Below, in pieces: positions 10,473 through 31,973 of a DNA stretch of 64,000 nt; the stretch's first letter is position 1; each line of letters begins with the position of its first letter. This stretch comes from a virus (Duplodnaviria; Caudoviricetes): IMG/VR virus record IMGVR_UViG_3300028591_000090, positions 32,001 through 96,000 of that record. The stretch is one strand, 5' to 3'. The notes under the pieces were generated by a model. It was given only the letters and a program-made list of their open reading frames with translations. It did not search any database and had not been told where the DNA came from. Position numbers and translations under genes: made by a program.

Positions 10473-11201
10473 TTATAGAACAAATAATTTTTCTATTGGT
10501 CTATATGTATTTTTGGTCGACATAGCATTTGTTACCTCTTTTTGCCATATGCACTTAAAATCGTCTGGCATTGAATATTCACTCACAAATAGTCTACATC
10601 TATCTTTTATTGAATGACACCAATTATAAAATCTATCGTAATCAAAGTTTGTAGAATTGCCATATTGTTTTGTGTTGCGATATGGGATGTCGCAATAAAC
10701 AACTGCACCGTCTGGAAATTTTACCTTTTCATAATCAGATGAACAGAAAGTTATTCTTTTTGTACTCAACATATCTACTTGACCAAGTGTATTTCTTATT
10801 TGTTCTCCAATATAATCTCTACCATTTACATTGTGACCACTATATCCACCATCATAGAACCTACCATTATAACTTCCCATAAAACCTACCCAACCAATAA
10901 GACCATCACTATACAGATATTGTTCATAATTTTTACCACTACGTGCACAATTATAAGCGTTACGAACTTCTGAATAAAATTCTCTTGTGATTTCTTGTGG
11001 ATATTGTTCACCAGCGAGTATTCCCTCCCACATTGCAATAAGATATTTATTTAAATCGTTTGCAATAATATCTTTTGTGTTTGCCACTTGTGTGACAGAT
11101 AAAGAGCCACAAAACATATCAACAAAAACATCTGTTTCTTTTACGTCCATTACTGCAAGAATATCTTTTGCTATCTTGCGTTTATTACCCATATACTTCA
11201 T
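10473..11201 (-). CDS. DNA adenine methyltransferase (Dam/D12 class)
   Basis: KYMGNK, FVDMFCGSLSV (motif I), VYCDIPY (motif IV). Confidence 0.85.
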   Translation of the reverse strand: MKYMGNKRKIAKDILAVMDVKETDVFVDMFCGSLSVTQVANTKDIIANDLNKYLIAMWEGILAGEQYPQEITREFYSEVRNAYNCARSGKNYEQYLYSDGLIGWVGFMGSYNGRFYDGGYSGHNVNGRDYIGEQIRNTLGQVDMLSTKRITFCSSDYEKVKFPDGAVVYCDIPYRNTKQYGNSTNFDYDRFYNWCHSIKDRCRLFVSEYSMPDDFKCIWQKEVTNAMSTKNTYRPIEKLFVL

Positions 11202-14136: not shown

Positions 14137-14482
14137 TATTATTATTTTTACATATAATCAAACAAAGTTCATCATTATCTTTTATATCTTTGAAACGCAA
14201 AGATAAATCATTTTTTATAATATCCAAATTTTCAGTACTTATTTTTGAATGAGAATCCAAATCTTTATACATCACTTTATCTGTATCTATTATCTTAAAT
14301 AATCCCAACGGAACTATTTCTATTTTGTCTTTTTCTTCACAATCTGGACAATAATTCTCATAATGTAAATGAATATAATCACCAGTCTTGTAATTGTCTT
14401 TCTTATCAACAAAAACAATAAATTCTTGTCCTAAAAAGACATAACAGAAATTTCTTACATTTAATTTAGTACACCCTCGCAT
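14129..14482 (-). CDS. hypothetical protein
   Basis: ORF track. Confidence 0.55.
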   Translation of the reverse strand: MRGCTKLNVRNFCYVFLGQEFIVFVDKKDNYKTGDYIHLHYENYCPDCEEKDKIEIVPLGLFKIIDTDKVMYKDLDSHSKISTENLDIIKNDLSLRFKDIKDNDELCLIICKNNNIG

Positions 14483-15020
14483 GAATCTCTTTCATTAAAT
14501 TATTTCTAAAACGCATACATTGAACTTTAATGGTATCAACTTTTTTATCCGTCTCCAATGATATATCTTTTAATGATTTACCGTTAATGTAATACTCAAT
14601 AAAAGAATTCTTGTTTATATTATCATTTAGGTTATAAATTATATCCTCAACACGAATATGTATATCATTTGCAGACGGCTCTCTATATATCTTATCTTCT
14701 ACATCTATACTATATGTCTTAATACTTTTCTTTTGCTTTTGCAATTTAGTACAGCATACAGAATTGATTATAGTATTCAACCACGTTCTAAATACCTTCT
14801 CTTCTTTTCCTACACCCTTGAAATTCTTTACACTATACAACAACTTAATAAATACCTCTTGTGCCATATCTTCCGAATCTTCGACATTCTTTGTATAGGA
14901 ATAACATTTCCATTTAATGTATTCATTATACAATCGAAAATATTTATTAACAGTTTTATTATCTTGTTCTACCAAACCCTTATACTCTTCCTGCGTCATC
15001 TTTAATGTATTTAATCCCAT
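14466..15020 (-). CDS. ECF-type RNA polymerase sigma factor
   Basis: Region 2 EDSEDMAQEVFIKL..FRTWLNTI and region 4 HTH GKSLKDIS...VDTIK. Confidence 0.8.
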   Translation of the reverse strand: MGLNTLKMTQEEYKGLVEQDNKTVNKYFRLYNEYIKWKCYSYTKNVEDSEDMAQEVFIKLLYSVKNFKGVGKEEKVFRTWLNTIINSVCCTKLQKQKKSIKTYSIDVEDKIYREPSANDIHIRVEDIIYNLNDNINKNSFIEYYINGKSLKDISLETDKKVDTIKVQCMRFRNNLMKEIHARVY

Positions 15021-15495: not shown

Positions 15496-15540
15496 ATCTT
15501 TATTTTTTTGCAAATATAAAATAAAAATATGAGAAAAACA

Positions 15541-15574
15541 AAAAAAAGGAGAAACTTTTTAAACAATTCCTCCT
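15541..15574 (-). terminator. intrinsic terminator ending the tRNA operon
   Basis: AGGAG...CTCCT stem followed by T7. Confidence 0.6.
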
Positions 15575-15670
15575 CTATCTCTTCTTGACTTATCGTCAAG
15601 TAACGCTAAACATAACGCTATCGCATCTGATTGTGATAATTTCTTATTACCAACCTGACAACGTACATTA

Positions 15671-15716: not shown

Positions 15717-15729
15717 TTTATGCTTTTTG

Positions 15730-15805
15730 TGTGTTAGGTTGGATTCGAACCAACGACCTTCTGCTCCACAAACAGACGTTCTAAACCAACTGAACTACTA
15801 ACACC
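15730..15805 (-). tRNA. tRNA-His (GTG)
   Basis: Cloverleaf, TCTGT-TTGTGGA-GCAGA, G-1 present. Confidence 0.9.
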
Positions 15806-15810
15806 ATGTG

Positions 15811-15884
15811 TTGTTGCGAAGGGACTCGAACCCCTAACGTCCAGAATCAAAATCTGGCATTCTAACCAGTTGAATTACGCAACA
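15811..15884 (-). tRNA. tRNA-Gln (TTG)
   Basis: CCAGA-TTTTGAT-TCTGG. Confidence 0.9.
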
Positions 15885-16033
15885 ATAAAAACGGCTTCAC
15901 GTACCGTTTTGTGGGCTTCAATTAGAATACCACGGAAGTTCATGGTGTGTGTGCACCTAACTTCTCTCACCATAAATCCACACAATTAGTGAGACCTAAA
16001 TCATATAATGCTCCAAATAAGGAGACTTCTTTG

Positions 16034-16107
16034 TGGGAACGGAGAGATTCGAACTCTCACTACATAGATTCTAAGTCTATTGCCTCTACCAATTGGGCTA
16101 CGTTCCC
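16034..16107 (-). tRNA. tRNA-Leu (TAG), short variable loop
   Basis: ATAGA-CTTAGAA-TCTAT; 5-nt variable region. Confidence 0.85.
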
Positions 16108-16166
16108 ATGTGCCCCATACGGAATCCTCACGCTGGGGCTATGATGACAAGCGTTTTTTATTTAGG

Positions 16167-16247
16167 TGCTTTGAGACAAGTTGGGACTCGAACCCAAATC
16201 CGAGGTTTTATTTTAGACCCCGTGTCTTAACCATTAGACGACAAGCA
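16167..16247 (-). ncRNA. tRNA-like RNA (intact D and T arms, oversized anticodon loop, bulged acceptor)
   Basis: GTCT/AGAC D stem, TTGGG-TTCGAGT-CCCAA, CGGGGT-CTAAAATAAA-ACCTCG. Confidence 0.55.
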
Positions 16248-16263
16248 TGAAACACATAAATTG

Positions 16264-16335
16264 TGTTCCGAAAAGGAATCGAACCTTTATTGTCTGCTTA
16301 GAAGGAAGATGTTCTATCCATTGAACTATCGGAAC
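16264..16335 (-). tRNA. tRNA-Arg (TCT)
   Basis: Loop CTTCTAA; one mismatch in anticodon stem. Confidence 0.85.
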
Positions 16336-16339
16336 TTTT

Positions 16340-16564
16340 GCACACCTAACAGCACTCCTATGGAATTACCCAATGGTCTGTTGCCTTTACTGGCTCAGGG
16401 ACTCTGGTTTGTGTGCTCTACTATAGTCCCTTTTTCGTTAAAATTTGGACGCCTGAAGATGCTTCCCTGCGTGGATACTCACGTCCTCGTTCTTACTTCG
16501 CTACTCACGCTTTTAGTCGACATATTAAACGCTTTTGCTTTTCTGACTCAGTTCATTGCTAGTG
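16340..16564 (-). ncRNA. unidentified structured RNA between tRNA-Glu and tRNA-Arg
   Basis: GC-enriched; terminal ACACTAGCA/TGTTAGGTGT, AGGGACT/AGTCCCT and GGACG/CGTCC helices. Confidence 0.45.
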
Positions 16565-16639
16565 TCGTGCATAGGGGATTTGAACCCACTAATTTCTTCC
16601 TTGAAGGGGAAGCGACTTAACCAATTCGTCTAATGCACG
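16565..16639 (-). tRNA. tRNA-Glu (TTC)
   Basis: CTTCC-CCTTCAA-GGAAG. Confidence 0.8.
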
Positions 16640-17443
16640 TTTTTTTAATTTATTATAAATCATTCCTTTACCAGCACAACTTCGTGAACAATAAAATGTT
16701 CCAGTTCTAAATTTACCATGTCTATAAAATAATTTACCACAAAAAGCACATTCATAATTATTATCATAACTATTATCATATAGTTCTTCTAAATGTTTTA
16801 CATTATATTTGTCTTTGCAATAATTTATATAAAATAACATATCATCATAATATAAAACTTTAGAATTTTCTGGTAAATGTTTTAATTTTTCTTCTGTTAT
16901 ATTTGTTTTAAAACCTTTTATTTCATATATTATACCATCTATTTCAAAATCTGGATTATAAAAATGTTTTTCTCCATCAAATTCATATTCTAATTTTTTA
17001 TCACATCTTTTTATGTTTGAATTGTTATCAAGATGATAAATAAGAAATGCAAGTTCCCAAGTAGAATCTAAAAAGAAACCTTTATAAAAACCTTTATGTC
17101 CTCTACCACTACCTTTTCTATATCCTCCATACTTAACATTTTCTTTCAACCATTTTTCTTTACATTCTTCTGAACAATATTTAGAATTTCTCTTTCTTAA
17201 ATCAAATTCAGTACTGCAATATTTACATTTTTTAATTTTTGGTATTTTGGCTTTTTCTCTTCTAATTTCGTTATTAAAAGGGACCCATTTACCACCATGC
17301 ATTAAAGTGTAACCAATTTTCTTTTTTGTTTCTTCTGAATGGTGTCGTGTATTTGCACAACTTTTAGAACAAAATCTTCCAGAACCATAATTCCCATTAT
17401 GTTCTTTTCCACAATTTTCACAAATAAAAATTTGATTTTCCAT
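16589..17443 (-). CDS. free-standing homing-endonuclease-like protein (Cys/Zn repeats plus PD-(D/E)xK domain)
   Basis: CENCGK..FCSKSC repeats, HSEETKKKI (NUMOD3-like), DSTWE..YNPDF..IYEIKG. Confidence 0.75.
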   Translation of the reverse strand: MENQIFICENCGKEHNGNYGSGRFCSKSCANTRHHSEETKKKIGYTLMHGGKWVPFNNEIRREKAKIPKIKKCKYCSTEFDLRKRNSKYCSEECKEKWLKENVKYGGYRKGSGRGHKGFYKGFFLDSTWELAFLIYHLDNNSNIKRCDKKLEYEFDGEKHFYNPDFEIDGIIYEIKGFKTNITEEKLKHLPENSKVLYYDDMLFYINYCKDKYNVKHLEELYDNSYDNNYECAFCGKLFYRHGKFRTGTFYCSRSCAGKGMIYNKLKKRALDELVKSLPLQGRN

Positions 17444-17582
17444 AATTATTTTTATCTTTTTTTATAGGTTATTGGTAGTAACCTTTATTTTATTTAGTTT
17501 TAAAAAATAGTAGTTAGATAAAACTATGGATAATTTTATCAATTGGCTACCAACCAGATGTCCTACTATTTTTATAGTTTAT

Positions 17583-17661
17583 GCTTGTGTATGATAGGCT
17601 TCGAACCATATGCCTCTCTATCTCTATAGATTGTTCTGCCATATTAAACTACAACACAAGC
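17583..17661 (-). ncRNA. tRNA-like RNA with 4-nt loop in place of the anticodon loop
   Basis: Extended acceptor GCTTGTGT/ACACAAGC, D arm, TCTAT-AGAG-ATAGA, TTCGAA T loop. Confidence 0.55.
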
Positions 17662-17783
17662 ATTTCGTTTTACTAAAAACTCTACGACTTTGCAAAACTA
17701 CTCCGTGGAAAACGATACACGTTTCATTTACTTAAACCATCCATTGAGACCGGATGCAGTCTCATTTAAGCGTGTGAATTTTG

Positions 17784-17860
17784 CGGTGACAGTAGGATTC
17801 GAACCTACGACCCAGGGATTAACAGTCCCTTGCTCTAAAAACCAACTGAGCTATGTCACC
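17784..17860 (-). tRNA. tRNA-Asn (GTT)
   Basis: AGGGA-CTGTTAA-TCCCT. Confidence 0.9.
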
Positions 17861-17864
17861 ATAA

Positions 17865-17937
17865 TATTTAAGTTTGGAATCGAACCAAAGCCTTTCTCAA
17901 TACATGGAGAAGATGCAGACCACTACACTACTTAAAC
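17865..17937 (-). ncRNA. tRNA-like RNA with 8-nt anticodon loop
   Basis: TTCTC-CATGTATT-GAGAA; acceptor and T arm intact. Confidence 0.55.
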
Positions 17938-17938
17938 G

Positions 17939-18012
17939 TGGACCAGACTGGGCTTGAACCAGTGACCTCCTGATTATGAGTCAGTTGCTCTGACCAACTG
18001 AGCTACAGGTCC
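17939..18012 (-). tRNA. tRNA-Ile2/Met (CAT), Ile2-like body
   Basis: CTGA-CTCATAA-TCAG; body resembles lysidine-type Ile2 tRNAs. Confidence 0.8.
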
Positions 18013-18165
18013 AAAAAAAGTGGTAGAAGGAATAGTTTCAAATCCATAGAAAAACATGGAAATTGTTTATAATTTAATAATTACTGGGTGAACTACTACA
18101 CCCTCTATCCCATTGTTGAAAACTTTTGAGAATACTTTTCTAATTAATAACTACCACTTAAATCT
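18013..18165 (-). ncRNA. orphan TnpB omegaRNA-like scaffold (18035..18165) plus putative guide (18013..18034)
   Basis: Close copy of 29910..30045 (tnpB 3' end and right end), diverging after GAAACTAT. Confidence 0.75.
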
Positions 18166-18281
18166 TCGCCGTGCTGACCTTACACCTATGATTGCTACTC
18201 TTACACATATTAGTTGTACACCTAAATATGTGATATGGTGCACCGTTTCACAACCACGCAGACTCGAACTGCACCTGCGAC
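18166..18281 (-). ncRNA. circularly permuted tRNA-like RNA (YrlA/Y-RNA-like topology)
   Basis: Order 5' TCGC, T arm, TGGTTG...CAATCA acceptor closed by insert, D arm, GCGA 3'. Confidence 0.55.
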
Positions 18282-18292
18282 ATGCTTTTTTG

Positions 18293-18363
18293 CTCGGTCG
18301 AAGGGACTCGAACCCTCATACGCCCCCGTCAATGGGGCTGTTCTACCGTTAAACTACAACCAA
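18293..18363 (-). ncRNA. atypical tRNA (loop ATTGACG, class I body)
   Basis: Full cloverleaf but A32/C37 loop; TGA anticodon without the Ser long arm. Confidence 0.55.
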
Positions 18364-18458
18364 GAAACACATTCTAACGCTGCAACATTATTATGTGCCA
18401 ATGGACATAAATGCTTTAATCGTTTGCAGACAATCTTTGCATTCGCCAATCCATTTAG

Positions 18459-18530
18459 AACAAGAAATGAGAATCGAACTCACATATCCAGTTTTGAAGA
18501 CTGGAGCACTAACCGTTGTGCTATTCTTGC
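18459..18530 (-). tRNA. opal (UGA-reading) suppressor tRNA, anticodon TCA, tRNA-Gly-like body
   Basis: CCAGT-CTTCAAA-ACTGG; body closely resembles tRNA-Gly at 20196; U73. Confidence 0.85.
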
Positions 18531-18539
18531 ATTTTTATG

Positions 18540-18626
18540 TGGCTCAAATCGGACTCGAACCGATACGAGCATTTCTGCCCCTGGGATTTTAAGTCCCATG
18601 CGTACTACCAATTTCGCCACTGAGCC
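18540..18626 (-). tRNA. tRNA-Leu (TAA)
   Basis: TGGGA-CTTAAAA-TCCCA, long variable arm. Confidence 0.9.
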
Positions 18627-18634
18627 AAAATTTG

Positions 18635-18751
18635 AGTCGCCAACTGGATTCGAACCAGTATCTCCAATGTGATTTAGGAAAATCTTACGTATTGTACAGA
18701 ATGAGGCTGTACCGACCTCAAATACGTTGGCACCTATTAGACGATGGCGAC
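18635..18751 (-). ncRNA. tRNA-like RNA with pseudoknotted ~40-nt insertion in the D region
   Basis: Perfect GTCGCCA/TGGCGAC acceptor and T arm; insert ACGTATT[TGAGG..GTACAG CCTCA]CTGTAC AATACGT. Confidence 0.55.
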
Positions 18752-18757
18752 AAAAAG

Positions 18758-18860
18758 TTGTGTTAGATGGATTCGAACCAACAATGTATGCTATTCTACA
18801 TGCTTATTTACATACTCCTACCACAAATGTAGGTGGGTTTACCATTTCCCCTATAACACG
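18758..18860 (-). ncRNA. class II-like tRNA with TTG anticodon and very long variable arm
   Basis: CCTAC-ATTTGTG-GTAGG; ~34-nt variable region closed by GTATG/CATAC. Confidence 0.55.
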
Positions 18861-18867
18861 AATTTTG

Positions 18868-18939
18868 TTGCGAGAGAGGGATTCGAACCCACGACCTACA
18901 GCTTATGAGGCTGCCGAGCTACCTCTGCTCTATCTCGCA
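18868..18939 (-). tRNA. tRNA-Met (CAT), initiator-like D arm
   Basis: GCAGC-CTCATAA-GCTGT; GAGC/GCTC D stem. Confidence 0.85.
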
Positions 18940-18952
18940 ATATATTTTATTG

Positions 18953-19026
18953 TGGTCGTTCTACGACTCGAACGTAGGACTTCTTCGGTATCAGCGAAGT
19001 ACTCTAACCAACTGAGTTAAACGACC
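18953..19026 (-). tRNA. tRNA-Ile (GAT)
   Basis: CTTCG-CTGATAC-CGAAG. Confidence 0.9.
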
Positions 19027-19039
19027 AAGAATAATCAAA

Positions 19040-19435
19040 ACTAAAAAGTGTGTTTAATCATTAAGTAACATTATAGTAAACACAGATTATTGTCTACATC
19101 CGTAACACGGCTTTCGTTACTAATCACTTTGCAAGCAAAGGCAACAATAATCTTTTACTTTTTTACAAACTCTTTTTCTGTTCGATGGCGAGTTTATTTA
19201 TGGTCCATTTCCGTTGCCAAGTAACATAATTCATAGCAAACAATCACGGAAACCTACGATGAGTTGTTGAGTAACAAACAAAAGTTGCTATATCAAGGAC
19301 GACATATATATAATCGGCTAAATGACCGACTTTCAGAACCTTGTTCTGCTATCCGAGATTATCTTACCTTGATTTAAGATAGATACAAATTCATTGTATC
19401 TCTTGGAGAGTTTAGGCAGTAGTTGTCTTTCTACT
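19040..19435 (-). ncRNA. large (~400 nt) unidentified structured RNA
   Basis: About ten helices, long-range AAACTCT/AGAGTTT, pseudoknot ATCAAGG/CCTTGAT, no ORF. Confidence 0.6.
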
Positions 19436-19437
19436 TG

Positions 19438-19511
19438 CGGGTAGTACGAGATTCGAACTCGTGAACTCCTCATAGACAGTGAGGAATGATAGACCGCTTC
19501 ACCAACTACCC
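19438..19511 (-). tRNA. tRNA-Asp (GTC)
   Basis: CCTCA-CTGTCTA-TGAGG. Confidence 0.88.
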
Positions 19512-19629: not shown

Positions 19630-19729
19630 TTCACCTCAAGCATCATTTGTTTAAATGCTTACGTTTACATCTTTTTCCTTTTCCCGTATGTCAAAGAACT
19701 CGTTTGTTTTATTTAACGATGCAAATATA
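19630..19729 (-). promoter_or_regulatory. internal promoter, boxA-like element and conserved leader hairpin
   Basis: TATATTTGC (19721-29), GAGTTCTTTGACATACGGGAAAA, AGCATTTA..AAATGATGCT..AGGTGA; paralogous to 21715..21847. Confidence 0.75.
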
Positions 19730-19785
19730 CAACAATGTTTTGAAACAACCAAATAAAACAACAACTTTTTTTTATTTTTTTTTTG

Positions 19786-19871
19786 CGGAGATTGTAGGAC
19801 TTGAACCTACACGTCTTACGACTACTGACAGTTTAGCAAACTGCTCCCTTACCAATTAGGGTTAAATCTCC
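19786..19871 (-). tRNA. tRNA-Ser (GCT)
   Basis: GCAGT-TTGCTAA-ACTGT, long arm. Confidence 0.9.
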
Positions 19872-19881
19872 ATATTATATG

Positions 19882-19954
19882 TACTCGTGCAGAGACTCGA
19901 ACTCCAATCTTCAGATCCGTAGTCTGATATTCTAATCCATTGAACTACACGAGC
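19882..19954 (-). tRNA. tRNA-Arg (ACG)
   Basis: TCAGA-CTACGGA-TCTGA. Confidence 0.9.
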
Positions 19955-19959
19955 AGTTG

Positions 19960-20031
19960 AGCACTCTATTGGAGTCAAACCAATTTATACGGTTTTGCAG
20001 ACCGCCACCTAAATCGTCCGGTACAGAGTGC
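19960..20031 (-). tRNA. tRNA-Cys (GCA)
   Basis: GCGGT-CTGCAAA-ACCGT, U73. Confidence 0.82.
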
Positions 20032-20195
20032 AAAAATGTGTTGGAAAATCCTCGTGCAACACCACACGCCAACTCAACGATTTGGCTCCATCTCGTAAGA
20101 TGCTACTTTAGAAAGTTTTCCCAAAGCATTCACACAATTAGTGTGAGAGACGTTTCGATCCTACTTTTAACATGTATTATATGTAGGCTATAATG

Positions 20196-20267
20196 AGCAG
20201 ATAAAGAGAATCGAACTCTCATCTCCAGAGTGGAAGTCTGGAGCACTAACCATTGTGCTATATCTGC
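20196..20267 (-). tRNA. tRNA-Gly (TCC)
   Basis: CCAGA-CTTCCAC-TCTGG, U73. Confidence 0.9.
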
Positions 20268-20272
20268 ATAAA

Positions 20273-20512
20273 TTATCTTAATTCAATTAATTCTTCTTTT
20301 TCTATTGCTTTACGAATCCAACGCATCAAAATAATTGCTTTATCATAATGGCACATAAACGTAGCAGTTTCTCCTACATCGTGTGTGTCTGCCAAATTGA
20401 TTTCCAATTGATATTTTTTACCACTTTCTGACGTTAATTCATAAATTGCAACACCGCCTGCTTTAACGCAAACCATATCTGCATTTCCTTTAATAATATC
20501 TTTCAAATCCAT
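20273..20512 (-). CDS. small hypothetical protein inside the tRNA operon
   Basis: Start moved to MDLKDIIK (the longer call overlaps tRNA-Pro). Confidence 0.7.
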   Translation of the reverse strand: MDLKDIIKGNADMVCVKAGGVAIYELTSESGKKYQLEINLADTHDVGETATFMCHYDKAIILMRWIRKAIEKEELIELR

Positions 20513-20531
20513 AATATATGTATTATTTTTG

Positions 20532-20604
20532 TCTGGGTAGCAAGACTCGAACTTGCGACCTGATGGTCCCAAACCACCCGTTCTACCAACTGAACTATAC
20601 CCAG
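20532..20604 (-). tRNA. tRNA-Pro (TGG)
   Basis: GGTGG-TTTGGGA-CCATC. Confidence 0.9.
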
Positions 20605-20613
20605 TTTATTTAG

Positions 20614-20686
20614 TGACTCCGATGAGGTTCGAACTCATGACCCCATCCTTAAAAGGGATGTGCTCTCCCAACTGAGCTACGAAGTC
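20614..20686 (-). tRNA. tRNA-Lys (TTT)
   Basis: CATCC-CTTTTAA-GGATG. Confidence 0.92.
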
Positions 20687-20954
20687 ATGTGCTAATATCG
20701 TATGTTCTTCGTTTTGTTTGTTCTGGGCGGTTAAAAGAGAACAACAGATTTGGTAGTCTTTTCAATCTTAGCATTTTCTGAAAAGAATCGTTCCGCACCT
20801 ACGTCTAACTTTTGTACTATTCACCACGAGTTTACGATGACCTTGAGTCTGTTTACGATTACCAGTCGTTCCAGAAGTCCATCTACATAGTTACTTTGGC
20901 AAGTTTCGTCTATGCCAGCGTTTGTTTATAACCTCAACGCAATTTGGTATTTTG

Positions 20955-21029
20955 TGGAAGCGATGGGACTTGAACCCACGACTTTCTGCGTGCAAGGCAG
21001 ATGTTCTAGCCAAACTGAACTACACCCCC
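20955..21029 (-). tRNA. tRNA-Ala (TGC)
   Basis: TCTGC-CTTGCAC-GCAGA; G3.U70. Confidence 0.92.
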
Positions 21030-21039
21030 ATAAAAGAAT

Positions 21040-21250
21040 CTTGACGTATTTCTTATGAGAATTCCTTCAACGGATTATTTAGTGCCATTAAATAACCATT
21101 CCTTTGATTTTGTCTGTTATGCATAAATGAACTTATGCACTCTAACCATATGTCATATACGTTAGAATGTTTTCCCGACAAATCGTGAAGGTTAAGGCTC
21201 AAAGTACTAAGTTTACCTTTTCTTCACGACTGCTATGATATAGCGTCAGG
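21040..21250 (-). ncRNA. unidentified multi-hairpin RNA (~210 nt)
   Basis: Ends pair (CCTGACG/CGTCAAG); TCGTGAAG/CTTCACGA, TGCATAA/TTATGCA and other internal hairpins. Confidence 0.5.
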
Positions 21251-21261
21251 CTGCAATTGCG

Positions 21262-21346
21262 TGGGAGAGGAGGGATTCGAACCCCCTGTGTTTCTATGTG
21301 CTGGTTTTACAGACCAGTGCTACTCCACCATCGTAGCCGCTCTCCC
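21262..21346 (-). tRNA. tRNA-Tyr (GTA)
   Basis: CTGGT-CTGTAAA-ACCAG. Confidence 0.9.
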
Positions 21347-21352
21347 AAAATG

Positions 21353-21439
21353 CGGAGAGGGAGGGATTTGAACCCCCGGTGCTTTTTAGGGCACGACGGT
21401 TTTCAAGACCGTTGCAATAAGCCTCTCTGCCACCTCTCC
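21353..21439 (-). tRNA. tRNA-Ser (TGA)
   Basis: ACGGT-CTTGAAA-ACCGT, long arm. Confidence 0.92.
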
Positions 21440-21452
21440 GAGTAAAATTTTG

Positions 21453-21526
21453 TTGGCTTAGTGAGACTCGAACTCACACTTTATAGGTTTTGAATCTATT
21501 TCCTCTACCGATTGGGATACAAGCCA
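21453..21526 (-). tRNA. tRNA-Leu (CAA), short variable loop
   Basis: Loop TTCAAAA; body similar to Leu(TAG) at 16034. Confidence 0.8.
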
Positions 21527-21533
21527 ATGTTGT

Positions 21534-21587
21534 CTATCTAGTGTGATTCGAACACACGTGCTCATGTTTCTAATGCAGGCCTAGATA
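21534..21587 (-). ncRNA. mini-tRNA (acceptor plus T arm, no D arm)
   Basis: TATCTAG/CTAGATA stem stacked on GTGTG-TTCGAAT-CACAC. Confidence 0.5.
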
Positions 21588-21601
21588 ATGATAAAATTAA
21601 G

Positions 21602-21674
21602 AGCTCCCACACGGATTTGAACCGCAGTCCCCTGATTACAAGTCAGGTATAATAACCAACTATACGATAGGAGC
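21602..21674 (-). tRNA. tRNA-Thr (TGT)
   Basis: CCTGA-CTTGTAA-TCAGG. Confidence 0.9.
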
Positions 21675-21714
21675 GTAAGAAGGTTTTTGTTGTTACACAG
21701 GTGGATAAACCACT

Positions 21715-21847
21715 TCACCTTTAGCATCATTTAATAAATGCTTCTGCGTTTGTTTGAATTTTGCTCTATAATCTTTTTCCCGTATGTCAAAGAACTTTTG
21801 GATTATTTGTTGTCGGTTTATCCATTCCGATTTTTTTTGCAAATATA
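21715..21847 (-). promoter_or_regulatory. tRNA-operon promoter, boxA-like element and leader (leader arm of the inverted repeat)
   Basis: TATATTTGC 21839-47, AGTTCTTTGACATACGGGAAAAAG, leader hairpin shared with 19630. Confidence 0.75.
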
Positions 21848-21864
21848 CACAATATTTTTAAATT

Positions 21865-21905
21865 AAAAAAGGCTTTTGAATTTTTTTTATGTTCAAAAGC
21901 CTTTT
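21865..21905 (-). terminator. attenuator terminator (mutually exclusive with antiterminator 21937..21955 / 21887..21905)
   Basis: AAAAGGCTTTTGAA/TTCAAAAGCCTTTT stem ending in a T6 tract. Confidence 0.75.
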
Positions 21906-21934
21906 CGATATATATATTGTGTATTGATTTCTAC

Positions 21935-22027
21935 CTAAAAGACTTTTGAACATAAACGAGGGGCACTTTCGCAATTTTTATGTTGCGAATACAATGTTGT
22001 TCCTGCTATGTTAAAAATCTTTTTCAT
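21935..22027 (-). CDS. putative attenuator leader peptide MKKIFNIAGTTLYSQHKNCESAPRLCSKVF
   Basis: 30-codon ORF after TAAATAA and an A-rich initiation region; last codons form the antiterminator arm. Confidence 0.7.
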   Translation of the reverse strand: MKKIFNIAGTTLYSQHKNCESAPRLCSKVF

Positions 22028-22219
22028 TTTTTTTATTTATTATTAAATTTTTATTTCTTTTTAAATTTTAAATTTTGGTAAACATTCATCATTTTCTTTT
22101 TTTAATTTTTCTAAATCACTCTTATATGGTTTTCTACCATTTTTTTGATTTTTCTTTAATCTTCCACCACCAATAAGAGGGATTCTTTTTCCAACATAAA
22201 ATCCCATAATTTTTAAATT

Positions 22220-22753
22220 TTAATCAAACCAATAAATTATTCTAATATTTTCTGTTTCTAAATGAAATCCTTCTTCATTACATGATAGGTCAGATTGATA
22301 TACTTGACCTAAAATTTCGTGAAAGAAAGAATGTAAATTCACATAATCGTTAAATGCAGAAAACTCATCTTCCAATATTGCATTTACATCTTTTCTTTCG
22401 AGGTCATCAAAAGATTTATCTTTTAGTAAACCTCTACATATTTCGTATTCATTATAATGACAGAAAGCATTTAGTTCATTATGCAATCTTCCATAGTGGA
22501 AATCACCCAATTGTGATATTTCTGCTAAAGTTGCCCAAGATTGTCCATAACTATTTTTTGATTGTGCAAAACTATTTACTTTTGCAGTACAATCTTTTGG
22601 CAAACCTCTTTTTTCAAATGGTCTTTCCTCGAAACTATTAGCAGAAAACATATCACGTATTCTACCTTGTTTCCATTGTGGACGTTTAGAAATTAATTTC
22701 CAAGTACCATCTGAATATTTTGCTTCTACTATGTAATTAAAATATGAACTCAT
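22220..22753 (-). CDS. hypothetical phage protein
   Basis: RGLPKD...SWATL.E...RIIYWFD pattern; own promoter. Confidence 0.7.
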   Translation of the reverse strand: MSSYFNYIVEAKYSDGTWKLISKRPQWKQGRIRDMFSANSFEERPFEKRGLPKDCTAKVNSFAQSKNSYGQSWATLAEISQLGDFHYGRLHNELNAFCHYNEYEICRGLLKDKSFDDLERKDVNAILEDEFSAFNDYVNLHSFFHEILGQVYQSDLSCNEEGFHLETENIRIIYWFD

Positions 22754-22828
22754 TTTCTATTTCATTTACGGTGCAAATATACAAATAATTTTTTAATTTG
22801 CAAAATATTTTTTAATTTTTTTTTGAAA

Positions 22829-29909: not shown

Positions 29910-31264
29910 GTTTCAAAATCCATAGCAAAATATGGAAATTGTTTATAATTTAACAATTACTGGGTGAACTACAACACCCTCTATCCCATCGTTGAAAACT
30001 TTTGGGAATGCTTTTCTCATGATGTTATAGCTTCCGTTTACATCTGCGTTTATCTTGTTCCCATTTTCTGAAATAAACAAGCCACGGCGAACACGCTTGC
30101 CTTTATAAACATCATGCTTTTTAATTTCTTCCAAATCAAGGAAACTGCATTTAGATGTGTAGTTTTCCTCGTTTGTAATTACTTTTATCCCCACCTTTTC
30201 GCATTTGTATGAAATCATTTCAACAAATCTACTGTGGGGTATTTGTATGAAGTTCTGATTGTTTTTTGAACCGATGTTACAGTCTTTCTTCCATCCGTCG
30301 TTCTTTCCAATAACCAGAACAGATATATTCTTGTCTTTTAAATCATTGACTATTCTCTTACTTGCACGATGCAAGTAGTTGTCTACTTTATTATTCCTTT
30401 TATTTGTGAGCCTTCTTGTCCTATGCGAATGCTTTTTCTTATTGACTTTTTCTAATTTAGACTTATGTTTCGCAAGTTCCTTATTATAGAACTGGTTCAT
30501 CGATTTCAAAGGTTTTCCGTTTATTATAACTGGCTGTTCTCCATACGAATATGTTACCGTAGCAAGGTTATTAACGCCTAAATCAATTGAGGCAATTCTT
30601 TTATTGAATTTTACTTTTTCTACATCATCTATTGTATAGATTACCTCAATTACATATTGCTCGATTCTTGGAACAATCCTTACACAATTTATTGATTTAA
30701 AGTCGTTTATTTTTGTATAAAATTCTATGTTTACTTTTGATAGTTTAATTTTATGGGACTTATCAAATACTTTTTTTGAGATAGTCTGATTGTTGAATAC
30801 TGTAACATATCTTCCATCTTCTTTGTGTAAGAATTTTGGAAACTTGATGTTTTTATTATCAACATTATTTGAACGAATCATTCCGAAAAACGAGTTGCAA
30901 GTCGCATGAACAGCACGAAGTGTCGCCTGAGCAACCTTCTGCGGAAGTCGCTTGAAGCATTCATCGTTCTTCATATATAAATACGAATCATTCAATACAT
31001 TATATGTTTTGCTTTCTTCATATTCCTTTCGTATCAGATATAATGTCCTGTTATATATGTTTTTTGAAGAAAAACACAGCGAATCACATTCCTTATATAA
31101 GGAATGATTTCTATTAATAATATGTCTTTCTACCAATTGCATTTCTGTATAATAATACAGTTTCTTTTTATTATTTATTTGCAAAAATAATTGATTTTTT
31201 TTGTCAAATAAATTGTATTGTTTCCATAAATTTTCTATAATGTTATATAAAAATAATACAGACA
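29910..31264 (-). mobile_element. non-autonomous IS200/IS605-type tnpB element (right end +/-3 nt)
   Basis: Inserted after TTTAT; removal restores the C-terminus ...IPASLLYKMI* of the interrupted gene; subterminal hairpin and TTTGAAAC end. Confidence 0.7.
29943..31142 (-). CDS. tnpB: TnpB RNA-guided endonuclease (399 aa from MQLVERH), rearranged RuvC-II type
   Basis: SIDLGVNN, VIG in place of the usual E with alternative E in NEENYTS, INADVNG. Confidence 0.88.
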   Translation of the reverse strand: MQLVERHIINRNHSLYKECDSLCFSSKNIYNRTLYLIRKEYEESKTYNVLNDSYLYMKNDECFKRLPQKVAQATLRAVHATCNSFFGMIRSNNVDNKNIKFPKFLHKEDGRYVTVFNNQTISKKVFDKSHKIKLSKVNIEFYTKINDFKSINCVRIVPRIEQYVIEVIYTIDDVEKVKFNKRIASIDLGVNNLATVTYSYGEQPVIINGKPLKSMNQFYNKELAKHKSKLEKVNKKKHSHRTRRLTNKRNNKVDNYLHRASKRIVNDLKDKNISVLVIGKNDGWKKDCNIGSKNNQNFIQIPHSRFVEMISYKCEKVGIKVITNEENYTSKCSFLDLEEIKKHDVYKGKRVRRGLFISENGNKINADVNGSYNIMRKAFPKVFNDGIEGVVVHPVIVKL

Positions 31265-31973
31265 ATAAACTTGCTGGAATATTTTCATAAGTGAAATAAC
31301 AATTTTTAATATTCATTGCTGTATCTTTATATATCTTAATATTATTTAATTTATTTAAATTTATTTTAAAAACAACATATTGTTTAAGTCCAAGACTATC
31401 TGCCAATTCTGATAATTGTTCATCTATTGTACTAAAATCACTTGTTGAATATAAAAAAATCTTTTCTGGATAATATCTATATTCTGCACTTCGGCAACGT
31501 AATCCTTTTTTCATAATAAAGTTATAGTTTCTTTTATTTGTTATATGGAAACAAATTCCTTTATTTTCATTAAAGATTATATCCGTTGCATCTGTTGTAT
31601 AAACTGGTTCTATATATAATGTATCATCATCATTATAAGTAATATAATAATTAAAAAAATCTAATATATTTTTAAAATGTTCATTTAACAGTATTTCTAT
31701 TTTCCTATCTTTATTTTTACATTTAATTTCAAGGTTTGTTTTATCATCACTTGTTATCTTATTATATTCAACATCATCTGCAACATATTGTTTTAATTTT
31801 GCAATAAGAGAGTCTATATTATGAGATTGTAACATTTCACCTATAAAATCATATCTCCAATCTTCATTAAATTTTTCTTCAATCAATGAAAAGTCATTAC
31901 CGAAGAAATCTTTCAAAAATTTCTTTTTCTCGCAACATTTACAATATTCGTCAAACAGTAATACTTTTTTCAT
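29943..31973 (-). CDS. in-frame fusion ORF: ADP-ribosyltransferase-fold-like phage protein plus TnpB
   Basis: N-terminal part has FHIT.....I.KKGL..IFL..VFKI..YFTYENIP pattern; read-through across the IS left end has no stop. Confidence 0.5.
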   Translation of the reverse strand: MKKVLLFDEYCKCCEKKKFLKDFFGNDFSLIEEKFNEDWRYDFIGEMLQSHNIDSLIAKLKQYVADDVEYNKITSDDKTNLEIKCKNKDRKIEILLNEHFKNILDFFNYYITYNDDDTLYIEPVYTTDATDIIFNENKGICFHITNKRNYNFIMKKGLRCRSAEYRYYPEKIFLYSTSDFSTIDEQLSELADSLGLKQYVVFKINLNKLNNIKIYKDTAMNIKNCYFTYENIPASLLSVLFLYNIIENLWKQYNLFDKKNQLFLQINNKKKLYYYTEMQLVERHIINRNHSLYKECDSLCFSSKNIYNRTLYLIRKEYEESKTYNVLNDSYLYMKNDECFKRLPQKVAQATLRAVHATCNSFFGMIRSNNVDNKNIKFPKFLHKEDGRYVTVFNNQTISKKVFDKSHKIKLSKVNIEFYTKINDFKSINCVRIVPRIEQYVIEVIYTIDDVEKVKFNKRIASIDLGVNNLATVTYSYGEQPVIINGKPLKSMNQFYNKELAKHKSKLEKVNKKKHSHRTRRLTNKRNNKVDNYLHRASKRIVNDLKDKNISVLVIGKNDGWKKDCNIGSKNNQNFIQIPHSRFVEMISYKCEKVGIKVITNEENYTSKCSFLDLEEIKKHDVYKGKRVRRGLFISENGNKINADVNGSYNIMRKAFPKVFNDGIEGVVVHPVIVKL

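What the first reader, a model, noticed from the sequence alone, without database searches (positions are those of the whole stretch)
21865..22045. Pan-codon leader-peptide attenuator gating the phage tRNA operon (candidate tRNA-depletion sensor)
Seen: TAAATAA element, then a 30-codon ORF (ATG AAA AAG ATT TTT AAC ATA GCA GGA ACA ACA TTG TAT TCG CAA CAT AAA AAT TGC GAA AGT GCC CCT CGT TTA TGT TCA AAA GTC TTT TAG) with 26 distinct codons and 18 amino acids (no Asp or Trp). It contains a hairpin TTCGCAA/TTGCGAA. Its last 19 nt (TTATGTTCAAAAGTCTTTT) pair over 19 bp with the 5' arm of the downstream terminator (14-bp stem, T6 tract), and the tRNA operon follows. Most codons are read by tRNAs of this operon (ATA, GCA, GGA, ACA, TTG, TTA, CAA, GAA, AGT, CGT, TCA, AAA). 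Known: trp/his attenuators share this pause/antiterminator/terminator layout but use runs of one amino acid. Inference: a ribosome reaching the stop masks the antiterminator, so transcription terminates; stalling at almost any codon allows read-through. The phage would then add tRNA supply when any host tRNA is depleted, e.g. by anticodon-nuclease defences. A host-type promoter downstream of the terminator would give unattenuated expression.
Basis: partly seen in the sequence, partly recalled or inferred. Interest (0 to 1): 0.93.

Follow-up and report, generated by a model that had tools for sequence, protein, structure and literature searches.

The report
Leader-peptide attenuator before phage tRNA operon
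A 30-codon mini-gene wired to a switchable transcription stop sits just upstream of this rumen phage's 24-tRNA operon and, like matched mini-genes I found in four other phage lineages, probably raises tRNA transcription when ribosomes decode slowly, a control not described in the papers I could search.

Summary
The ORF 22027..21935 sits in a four-segment RNA. Segments 1:2 form a long hairpin, 2:3 a 19-bp antiterminator, and 3:4 a 14-15-bp terminator with T6. Of 40 terminator-like sites in the genome, only this one has such an upstream complement. The start context is gene-like, and the module is identical in variant strains whose flanks differ.

"Gating" is only partial. A recurrent TATATTTG promoter and a boxA-like leader lie between the terminator and tRNA-Thr, and no promoter adjoins the ORF.

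The main new evidence is comparative. The same layout occurs in five leaders of four other phage lineages (L073/L074, L104/L128 twice, L193, L080). There the leader's amino acids match the tRNA block behind it (P about 1e-3 or lower). One pair shows 7 synonymous against 1 nonsynonymous change.

In the window the leader covers 9/9 amino acids of the first tRNA block and 15/16 of the whole array. These tests are weak (P 0.015-0.05), and whole-array codon matching is not enriched.

Verdict: a probable ribosome-mediated attenuator that adds read-through transcription (confidence 0.6). The scan noted this kind before on other DNA; I found no paper describing it.

The parts
22774..22781 (-). -7 box (TATATTTG) of the nearest upstream promoter. 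It is the likely source of the transcripts that enter the mini-ORF.
   Evidence: One of six copies of the TTG(N)TATATTTGCA motif, at 15518, 19729, 21847, 22781, 24659 and 25892. That TAnnTTTG is the Bacteroidota sigma-A -7 consensus is from established knowledge.
22220..22753 (-). 177-aa gene of unknown function between that promoter and the mini-ORF.
   Evidence: ORF list. Weak match to phrog_10141 and no Pfam family. Only near-identical copies exist in 5.8 billion proteins.
22058..22209 (-). 152-nt insertion/deletion segment holding a 48-aa ORF. It is absent in related strains, where the mini-ORF follows the 177-aa gene directly.
   Evidence: A joint from 22057 to 22210 appears in DNA contigs of three studies. 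Sequences L082 and L202 confirm it.
21935..22027 (-). Leader mini-ORF: 30 codons plus TAG.
   Evidence: Its start context is at the 82nd percentile of this genome's gene starts and in the top 0.8% of all ATGs. A gene caller called it as a partial gene on contig L082. It is identical in variant strain L202.
22002..22023 (-). Segment 1, the 5' arm of the long hairpin (codons 2-9).
   Evidence: Minimum-free-energy fold. The 1:2 hairpin has -23.2 kcal/mol.
21968..21989 (-). Inner 7-bp hairpin TTCGCAA/TTGCGAA at the top of the 1:2 hairpin.
21937..21961 (-). Segment 2, the 3' arm of the hairpin (codons 23-30). Its last 19 nt (21955..21937) are the antiterminator strand.
21887..21905 (-). Segment 3, the terminator 5' arm plus 5 nt of its loop. 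It pairs either with segment 2 (19 bp, -24.7 kcal/mol) or with segment 4.
   Evidence: (inverted repeat I1).
21865..21880 (-). Segment 4, the terminator 3' arm (21880..21867), and the T6 tract (21870..21865).
   Evidence: I8, 14/14 complementary; -16.6 kcal/mol.
21840..21847 (-). -7 box TATATTTG of the tRNA operon's own promoter, 18 nt after the T tract.
   Evidence: The terminator-then-promoter layout recurs at the end of the array (terminator 15576..15545, promoter 15518) and in L073, L074, L104 and L128.
21775..21795 (-). BoxA-like 21-mer leader. A second copy follows the internal promoter 19729.
   Evidence: The identical 21-mer follows a TATATT(T/A)G box in other phage contigs. It has no exact match in 185,579 bacterial and archaeal species genomes. 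The boxA reading rests on resemblance to rrn boxA, from established knowledge.
19785..21674 (-). First tRNA block, ten tRNAs: Thr, Leu-CAA, Ser-TGA, Tyr, Ala, Lys, Pro, Gly, Arg-ACG, Ser-GCT. It ends at the internal promoter 19729..19722.
15729..19511 (-). Second tRNA block, 14 tRNAs behind the internal promoter and boxA copy. The array terminator lies at 15576..15545.

Best explanation
The element is a ribosome-mediated (leader-peptide) transcription attenuator at the entrance of the phage's tRNA operon.

Proposed mechanism:
1. Transcripts start at the promoter at 22781, run through the 177-aa gene and reach the 30-codon ORF.
2. If the ORF is not translated, or the ribosome runs quickly to the TAG, segment 2 is held in the 1:2 hairpin or covered by the ribosome. 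The 3:4 terminator then forms and the transcript ends at the T6 tract.
3. If the ribosome is slow in the first half of the ORF (codons 1-14), segment 1 is covered. Segment 2 pairs with segment 3 over 19 bp, the terminator cannot form, and RNA polymerase reads on into the tRNA genes.
4. This read-through adds to the basal transcription from the operon's own promoter at 21847.

The leader contains every amino acid of the first ten tRNAs and 15 of the 16 amino acids served by the whole array. Slow decoding of many different codons would therefore raise tRNA output, giving feedback of tRNA supply on tRNA transcription.

Shown: the sequence features, the alternative pairings and their computed energies, the promoter motifs, conservation among strains, and the family parallels. 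Inferred: that the ORF is translated, that the terminator works, that translation and transcription are coupled, and what the physiological trigger is.
For: Structure in the window:
- Energies are 1:2 -23.2, 2:3 -24.7 and 3:4 -16.6 kcal/mol. Masking a ribosome footprint at codons 1-14 (and 19-21) gives the antiterminator; masking at codons 22-31 gives the terminator.
- The 2:3 pairing (19 bp) is longer than the terminator stem (14-15 bp). It runs 5 nt into the terminator loop, which goes beyond what a simple duplication of the terminator stem would supply.
- This is the only one of 40 terminator-like sites with such a complement.
- The ORF runs from 4 nt before segment 1 to the last base of segment 2.
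- The start context is gene-like.
- From the ATG to the promoter box (188 nt) there is 1 change in strain L202. The next 44 nt hold 5 changes, and the 177-aa gene about 2%.

Family evidence, found through the shared promoter and boxA motif:
- L073/L074: a 27-codon ORF lies inside a hairpin, and its 3' end pairs 10 bp with the arm of an 8-bp terminator. The array encodes Gly, Trp, Cys, Gln, Glu and Asp, and the leader holds the run G-C-D-W-Q-Q-E. That run occurs in 0 of 1797 gene windows and 0 of 20000 shuffles.
- L128/L104, second leader: a run of 16 residues (12 codons under strict wobble rules) is read by the block behind it, with iid P of 3.5e-5 to 1.4e-4. The first 25 codons differ between the two by 7 synonymous changes, 1 nonsynonymous change and one codon indel.
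- L104, first leader: 10/10 amino acids of its block are present (joint P 0.005).
- L193: the 41-codon leader holds all 20 amino acids and 17/17 of the array's amino acids. Its terminator lies 15 nt before the first tRNA, with no intervening promoter.
- L080: 18 of 31 residues fall in the six-amino-acid set of its array (0 of 869 windows; binomial 5e-4).

Window leader composition:
- 9/9 amino acids of the first block are present (P 0.05; joint with the count 0.024).
- The run A-G-T-T-L-Y-S is read by first-block tRNAs (P 0.003 strict, 0.025 lenient; this test was chosen post hoc).
- There are 18 distinct amino acids (P 0.015).
Against: - A recurrent promoter and a boxA-like leader lie between the terminator and the tRNAs, and a second copy lies inside the array. 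The switch cannot be the main control of tRNA synthesis.
- Unlike L104, L128 and L193, no promoter adjoins the ORF, and a 177-aa gene lies in between. The terminator could therefore simply end that unit.
- No diverged relative of this phage was found, and strains are identical in the ORF, so there is no synonymous/nonsynonymous or covariation test for this locus.
- Matching of the leader's codons to the whole array is not enriched (P 0.5-0.8), because the array reads 71-83% of all codons.
- Five of the 30 codons (Phe x2, Cys x2, Val) have no phage tRNA.
- Segments 1 and 3, and segments 2 and 4, resemble each other, as a tandem duplication of a hairpin would also produce.
- Homology of this leader to the others is not shown: only 13 of 18 bases after the ATG match L128 (by eye), and the terminators differ.
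- Several other arrays with the same promoter/boxA motif have no such leader.
Confidence: 0.6

Rival explanations
1. It is an ordinary operon-end terminator. The T6 hairpin ends the transcription unit of the 177-aa gene and shields the strong tRNA promoter from upstream transcription. The long upstream hairpin is a diverged tandem copy of the same hairpin, acting as a back-up terminator or a 3'-end stabiliser. The 30-codon frame is open by chance.
For: - Terminator followed at once by a promoter recurs at the array's end.
- The sequences of segments 1 and 3, and of segments 2 and 4, are alike (D4), so 2:3 pairing follows partly from duplication.
- About 9% of own-letter shuffles keep the frame open.
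- Gene callers did not call the ORF on the 197-kb contig.
- The leader is not enriched for codons of the whole array.
Against: - The 2:3 pairing extends 5 bp beyond the terminator stem.
- The ORF borders coincide with the hairpin borders, and the ATG context is in the top 0.8% of all ATGs.
- The same ORF-in-hairpin plus terminator layout lies before tRNA blocks in four other lineages. There the leader composition tracks the block, and one pair shows 7 synonymous changes against 1 nonsynonymous.
- None of the other 39 terminator-like sites has this layout.
Confidence: 0.22
2. It is a structured RNA or DNA element with another role. The four alternating copies of a roughly 19-nt motif could form an RNase III-type processing or stability hairpin for the upstream mRNA. 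Alternatively they could be operator sites for a phage regulator overlapping the -33 region of the tRNA promoter. In either case translation is irrelevant.
For: - Four motif copies in alternating orientation end 18 nt before the promoter box.
- Conservation among strains is strong.
- The long, nearly perfect 2:3 helix scores like a microRNA-precursor hairpin in Rfam, below every threshold.
Against: - No Rfam family matches.
- The T6 tract and the stem fit an intrinsic terminator.
- In the other lineages the helices have different sequences but the same ORF relationship, which a protein-binding site would not explain.
Confidence: 0.08
3. The ORF encodes a small functional protein, and the pairing with the terminator is incidental.
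For: The start context is gene-like. The L104/L128 leaders show purifying selection on the amino acids.
Against: - The peptides of the five lineages share no sequence beyond a few N-terminal residues.
- Their composition follows the tRNA block behind them.
- No homologue was found: the exact peptide is not on record, and the flanking genes have no relatives.
Confidence: 0.05

Closest known systems
Leader-peptide (ribosome-mediated) transcription attenuators of amino-acid operons (trpL, hisL, thrL, ilvL; modelled in PMC1183508)
   Same: A short ORF overlaps segment 1 of a 1:2 / 2:3 / 3:4 set of alternative helices ending in an intrinsic terminator. A slow ribosome early in the ORF frees the antiterminator, and a ribosome at the stop covers segment 2.
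   Different: - The genes behind are tRNAs, not biosynthetic enzymes.
- The leader has no run of one codon; it samples 18 amino acids.
- It lies behind a 177-aa gene rather than directly behind a promoter.
- The regulated operon also has its own promoter.
Attenuators that answer general translation inhibition: the bmrB leader of bmrCD (PMC4191407), vmlR (PMC9226507), msrD (PMC10314930)
   Same: A leader ORF without amino-acid-specific codon runs. Ribosome slowing of any cause switches a terminator off.
   Different: Those control antibiotic-resistance factors in Firmicutes and respond to drugs bound to the ribosome. Here the output is tRNA, and the likely signal is tRNA supply.
Earlier notes of this scan: 'leader-peptide attenuators gating phage tRNA operons' (phiCbK-like Caulobacter phages and uncultured jumbo phages; AI notes, unpublished)
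   Same: A mini-ORF plus a switchable terminator in front of a phage tRNA block, with the leader spelled in the amino acids of that block. I confirmed this rule myself on other DNA (L073/L074, L104/L128, L193, L080).
   Different: - This leader belongs to a phage with Bacteroidota-type promoters.
- It serves a near-complete tRNA set, so specificity cannot be shown statistically.
- A second promoter follows the terminator.
T-box leaders
   Same: A cis-acting RNA switch that reads tRNA status and controls a terminator.
   Different: T-boxes bind uncharged tRNA directly, need no ORF, and control aminoacyl-tRNA synthetase and amino-acid genes. No T-box or other Rfam family matches here.

Membership tests
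Leader-peptide transcription attenuator (trp/his type) | Short ORF ending just upstream of an intrinsic terminator | tested here: met
   ORF 22027..21935. Terminator 21905..21867 with T6, 29 nt after the stop codon.
Leader-peptide transcription attenuator (trp/his type) | Mutually exclusive helices 1:2, 2:3 (antiterminator) and 3:4 (terminator), with the ORF over segment 1 | tested here: met
   Energies are -23.2, -24.7 and -16.6 kcal/mol. Ribosome-mask folds switch between the two states. These are computed structures only.
Leader-peptide transcription attenuator (trp/his type) | Regulatory codons that correspond to the product of the regulated genes | tested here: inconclusive
   The leader holds 9/9 amino acids of the first tRNA block (P 0.05) and a run of 7 codons read by that block (P 0.003-0.025, post hoc). 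The whole array is not enriched (P 0.5-0.8). The feature is clearly met in L073, L128, L104, L193 and L080.
Leader-peptide transcription attenuator (trp/his type) | Leader lies directly behind the promoter, and the regulated genes depend on read-through | tested here: not met
   The nearest upstream promoter motif is at 22781, before a 177-aa gene. A promoter motif (21847) and a boxA-like leader follow the terminator.
Leader-peptide transcription attenuator (trp/his type) | Leader ORF is translated, and translation controls termination | not testable with these tools
   The evidence is indirect only: a gene-like start context, and selection on amino acids in the L104/L128 leader. The RNA run is held as contigs and cannot show this.
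Phage tRNA-block leader attenuators (class noted by this scan; unpublished) | Mini-ORF plus terminator immediately upstream of a tRNA block, with the ORF's 3' end complementary to the terminator's 5' arm | tested here: met
   The window pairs 19 bp. Other lineages with the layout: L073/L074 10 bp, L193 9 bp, L104 and L128 6-8 bp, and L080 about 5-6 bp.
Phage tRNA-block leader attenuators (class noted by this scan; unpublished) | Leader contains every amino acid carried by the tRNAs of the block behind it | tested here: met
   Window first block 9/9; whole array 14/16 plus the Met start, with only Asp missing. The same holds in L073 6/6, L104 leader 1 10/10, L128 9/10 plus Met, L193 17/17 and L080 6/6.
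Phage tRNA-block leader attenuators (class noted by this scan; unpublished) | ORF and structure kept in diverged relatives | tested here: inconclusive
   Only strains 97-98% identical are available, and the module is identical in them. No diverged relatives were found.
T-box riboswitch | Match to the T-box covariance model (specifier loop, T-box sequence) | tested here: not met
   No Rfam match at the gathering threshold in the window, and none up to E = 10 in 21650-22250.

The most novel reading that the evidence does not exclude
Phages of several unrelated lineages meter their own tRNA supply with leader peptides spelled in the amino acids of the tRNA block behind a switchable terminator. 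In this rumen phage the leader samples almost the whole 24-tRNA set. It would then act as a general decoding-speed sensor that boosts tRNA transcription whenever host tRNAs run short, for example after attack by anticodon nucleases.
Probability: 0.45. Interest if true: 0.9.

Novelty: new variant of a known kind. Interest (0 to 1): 0.78.

Why it matters
Why phages carry tRNA genes, and how they control them, is still debated; proposals include codon-usage compensation and escape from tRNA-targeting defences. A leader peptide that reads decoding speed and feeds back on tRNA transcription would give a concrete, testable control circuit. It would also be the first use of trp-type attenuation for tRNA genes that I could find in the searchable literature.

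The comparative result goes beyond this window. Five further leaders in four lineages have an amino-acid content that tracks their tRNA block. That gives a simple rule for finding such switches in other phages. It also points to cleaner cases for experiments: L193 and the first leader of L104 have no second promoter.

Tried and rejected
Searches for relatives that found nothing useful:
- GenBank phages, DNA search: only tRNA-Thr hits in unrelated phages.
- IMG/VR with the 177-aa protein, the 715-aa protein and the helicase: none.
- The exact 21-nt segment 2 pattern in IMG/VR: none.
- dUTPase relatives L001-L072: not syntenic; no tRNAs next to the gene.
- The 177-aa protein has only its own 90% cluster in 5.8 billion proteins. 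The 197-kb ENA contig could not be fetched.
- The exact 30-aa peptide is not on record as a called gene.
- A short promoter/boxA query against GenBank phages gave only chance hits.

Sequencing runs:
- Strain contigs hold no substitutions inside the ORF or the terminator, so no coding test was possible.
- An RNA-library contig (X8, 395 nt, 100% identical) spans 22135..21741, across the ORF, the terminator and the promoter. Contigs cannot show a transcript, and DNA carry-over is possible, so I do not count it.

RNA analyses:
- Rfam found nothing but tRNAs.
- The RNAalifold consensus of the L128/L104/L073/L074 leaders recovered only the terminator and an inner hairpin, because the ORF registers differ.
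- I did not build a covariance model to test homology of the window's leader; the terminators differ too much for four training sequences to decide.

Other checks:
- My first automatic terminator call in the mask script picked spurious outer helices. It was redone with explicit arms.
- Arrays in L185, L182, L138, L125, L147 and L155 show no leader plus terminator, so the layout is not universal.

Rejected readings:
- The 'pan-codon' statistic is not a conserved property. L073/L074 have ordinary codon diversity (P 0.7-0.8).
- I did not examine the 'TAAATAA element'; I took it to be AT-rich sequence with stops in all frames.

Full report
**1. What is there**

The finding lies on the minus strand. 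A 30-codon ORF runs from the ATG at 22027 to the TAG at 21935. It has 26 distinct codons and 18 amino acids, with no Asp or Trp.

The RNA from 22045 to 21850 folds with z = -6.0 against shuffles.
- Codons 2-9 (segment 1, 22023..22002) pair with codons 23-30 (segment 2, 21961..21937) around an inner 7-bp hairpin.
- A 14-15-bp hairpin follows (21905..21892 with 21880..21867), with a T6 tract.
- The last 19 nt of the ORF pair with 21905..21887, which is the terminator 5' arm plus 5 nt of its loop, over 19 bp.

The computed energies are 1:2 -23.2, 2:3 -24.7 and 3:4 -16.6 kcal/mol. Masking a ribosome footprint at codons 1-14 (and 19-21) yields the 2:3 helix. Masking at codons 22-31 yields the terminator.

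Of 40 terminator-like sites in the 183,630-bp genome, this is the only one with a long upstream complement: 19 bp, against at most 10 elsewhere.

**2. Surroundings**

All 24 tRNAs of the genome lie downstream on the same strand, from 21674 to 15729. The window comes from a 183.6-kb phage genome. By the run labels, the best DNA holder and possible source is a sheep gut metagenome, and other holders are ruminant gut runs.

A motif TTG(N)TATATTTGCA recurs at 15518, 19729, 21847, 22781, 24659 and 25892. It matches the Bacteroidota -7 consensus TAnnTTTG (established knowledge).
- One copy lies 18 nt after the T tract.
- It is followed by a 21-nt boxA-like sequence at 21795..21775.
- That sequence recurs behind the internal promoter 19729.

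The tRNA operon therefore has its own promoter, plus a second one after ten tRNAs. No promoter motif adjoins the ORF. The nearest is at 22781, before a 177-aa gene of unknown function.

Related strains, 97-98% identical and from three studies, lack 22058-22209, the segment holding a 48-aa ORF. In them the mini-ORF follows the 177-aa gene. In strain L202 the stretch from the ATG to the promoter box (188 nt) has one change. The next 44 nt have five, and the 177-aa gene about 2%. The module is thus under constraint, but this does not tell coding from structure.

**3. Is the ORF gene-like?**

- Its start context (A-rich, no Shine-Dalgarno) scores at the 82nd percentile of this genome's gene starts and in the top 0.8% of all ATGs.
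- A gene caller called it as a partial gene on contig L082, but not on the 197-kb contig.
- A codon diversity of 26/30 is reached by 0.16% of coding windows, 1% of chance ORFs, 1.4-1.6% of own-letter shuffles, and 5.7% of open windows in the non-coding tRNA region. It is in the upper tail but not decisive.
- The phage tRNAs read 21-23 of the 29 codons, no more than in any gene, where the figure is 71-83%.

**4. Comparative evidence**

No diverged relative of this phage could be found. However, the 21-nt boxA-like leader and the promoter-plus-boxA pattern retrieved other phage contigs. Earlier notes of this scan describe leaders matched to tRNA blocks in other phages. Prompted by them, I tested that idea on these independent loci.

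- **L073/L074.** A 27-codon ORF is enclosed in a hairpin. Its 3' end pairs 10 bp with the 5' arm of an 8-bp terminator. The promoter box, boxA and six tRNAs follow. The tRNAs are Gly, Trp, Cys, Gln, Glu and Asp, and the leader contains the run G-C-D-W-Q-Q-E. That run occurs in 0 of 1797 gene windows and 0 of 20000 shuffles.
- **L128/L104, second leader.** The layout is promoter, then a 34/35-codon ORF in a hairpin, then a terminator nearly identical to that of L073, then the promoter box and boxA, then a block of 12 tRNAs. A run of 16 residues (12 codons under strict wobble rules) is read by that block, with iid P of 3.5e-5 to 1.4e-4. The two copies differ in the first 25 codons by 7 synonymous changes, 1 nonsynonymous change and one codon indel. 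By my hand binomial estimate at a neutral 25% synonymous fraction, that has P about 4e-4. It argues for translation.
- **L104, first leader.** A promoter precedes a 32-codon ORF holding 10/10 amino acids of the block behind it (joint P 0.005). A terminator and then the tRNAs follow, with no second promoter.
- **L193.** The 41-codon leader holds all 20 amino acids and 17/17 of those of the array. A 9-bp antiterminator pairing is present, and the terminator lies 15 nt before the first tRNA.
- **L080.** In the 32-codon leader, 18 of 31 residues fall in the six-amino-acid set of the array (0 of 869 windows; binomial 5e-4). A terminator follows, then a promoter, a 65-aa ORF, a second promoter with boxA, and the tRNAs.

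Other arrays with the same promoter motif have no such leader, so the device is frequent but not universal.

**5. The window in this light**

Its leader holds 9/9 amino acids of the first block (P 0.05; joint with the count 0.024). It also holds 14/16 of the whole array plus the Met start, so only Asp is missing. It has 18 distinct amino acids (P 0.015). The run A-G-T-T-L-Y-S, at codons 8-14 and inside the zone where a stall frees the antiterminator, is read by first-block tRNAs (P 0.003 strict, 0.025 lenient; chosen post hoc).

Because the array serves 16 amino acids, specificity has little statistical power here. The first seven codons resemble those of the L104/L128 leader (13 of 18 bases after the ATG, by eye). 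The terminators differ, so common descent is open.

**6. Interpretation**

The best reading is a ribosome-mediated attenuator. It adds read-through from the promoter at 22781 to the basal transcription of the tRNA operon when decoding of the leader is slow. The leader samples most amino acids the phage tRNAs carry, so the circuit would couple tRNA synthesis to overall tRNA sufficiency.

The main weaknesses are the intervening promoter, the lack of a promoter next to the ORF, and the lack of informative substitutions at this locus. The chief rival is a plain operon-end terminator with a duplicated hairpin and a chance ORF (0.22). Two things argue against it: the 2:3 helix outruns the terminator stem by 5 bp, and the ORF-in-hairpin layout recurs in front of tRNA blocks in other lineages.

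**7. Novelty**

Leader-peptide attenuation is textbook (PMC1183508). Attenuators that answer general translation stress are also known (PMC4191407, PMC9226507, PMC10314930). I found no paper on such control of phage tRNA genes. This scan has noted the same kind before on other DNA, in Caulobacter phiCbK-like phages and uncultured jumbo phages. Those are unchecked notes. I confirmed the principle myself, but on different loci.

I class the element as a new variant of a known kind. Confidence for this locus is 0.6, and interest is 0.78.

Noticed in passing
window 22058-22209: A 152-nt segment holding a 48-aa ORF, flanked by a 14-nt direct repeat. It is present here and in an RNA-library contig but absent from related strains in three DNA studies. 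It is a recent insertion or deletion between the 177-aa gene and the leader.
   Followed up: partly
window 21775-21795 and 19680-19700; L073, L074, L075, L076-L081: The 21-mer GTTCTTTGACATACGGGAAAA, or its first 14 nt, follows a TATATT(T/A)G promoter box at 4-42 nt in several unrelated phage contigs. It sits before tRNA arrays, protein genes or apparent non-coding RNAs. It has no exact match in 185,579 bacterial and archaeal species genomes. It looks like a phage-borne boxA-type antitermination leader.
   Followed up: partly
L076, L078, L079 (downstream of the promoter/boxA match): These three contigs share a conserved non-coding stretch right after the promoter and boxA motif, with no ORF start nearby. 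It may be a structured RNA.
   Followed up: no
window 18458-18530 and 17865-17937: ARAGORN calls a tRNA with anticodon TCA (reads UGA; labelled SeC) and a tRNA with a four-base anticodon TGTA, both inside the array. They may be suppressor or frameshift tRNAs, yet genes in the window read normally with table 11.
   Followed up: no
window 16589-17443 and 29943-31973: An HNH endonuclease gene sits inside the tRNA array, and a 676-aa TnpB/transposase-like gene (phrog_506) lies 8 kb upstream. L073/L074 also have an HNH gene just before their leader.
   Followed up: no
window 14466-15020: A sigma-70 region 2 protein (phage sigma factor) is encoded in the unit that starts at the promoter right after the array's terminator.
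   Followed up: no
window 24659 and 25892: Two promoter regions share an identical stretch of about 60 nt, forming a repeat of a promoter-bearing segment.
   Followed up: no
L104 (reverse-strand positions 7820-7974 and 10601-10760): One phage carries two leader-terminator modules, one before each tRNA block, and each is matched to its own block. The second terminator is nearly identical to that of the unrelated-looking L073/L074 array, which suggests the module moves or is shared among phages.
   Followed up: partly
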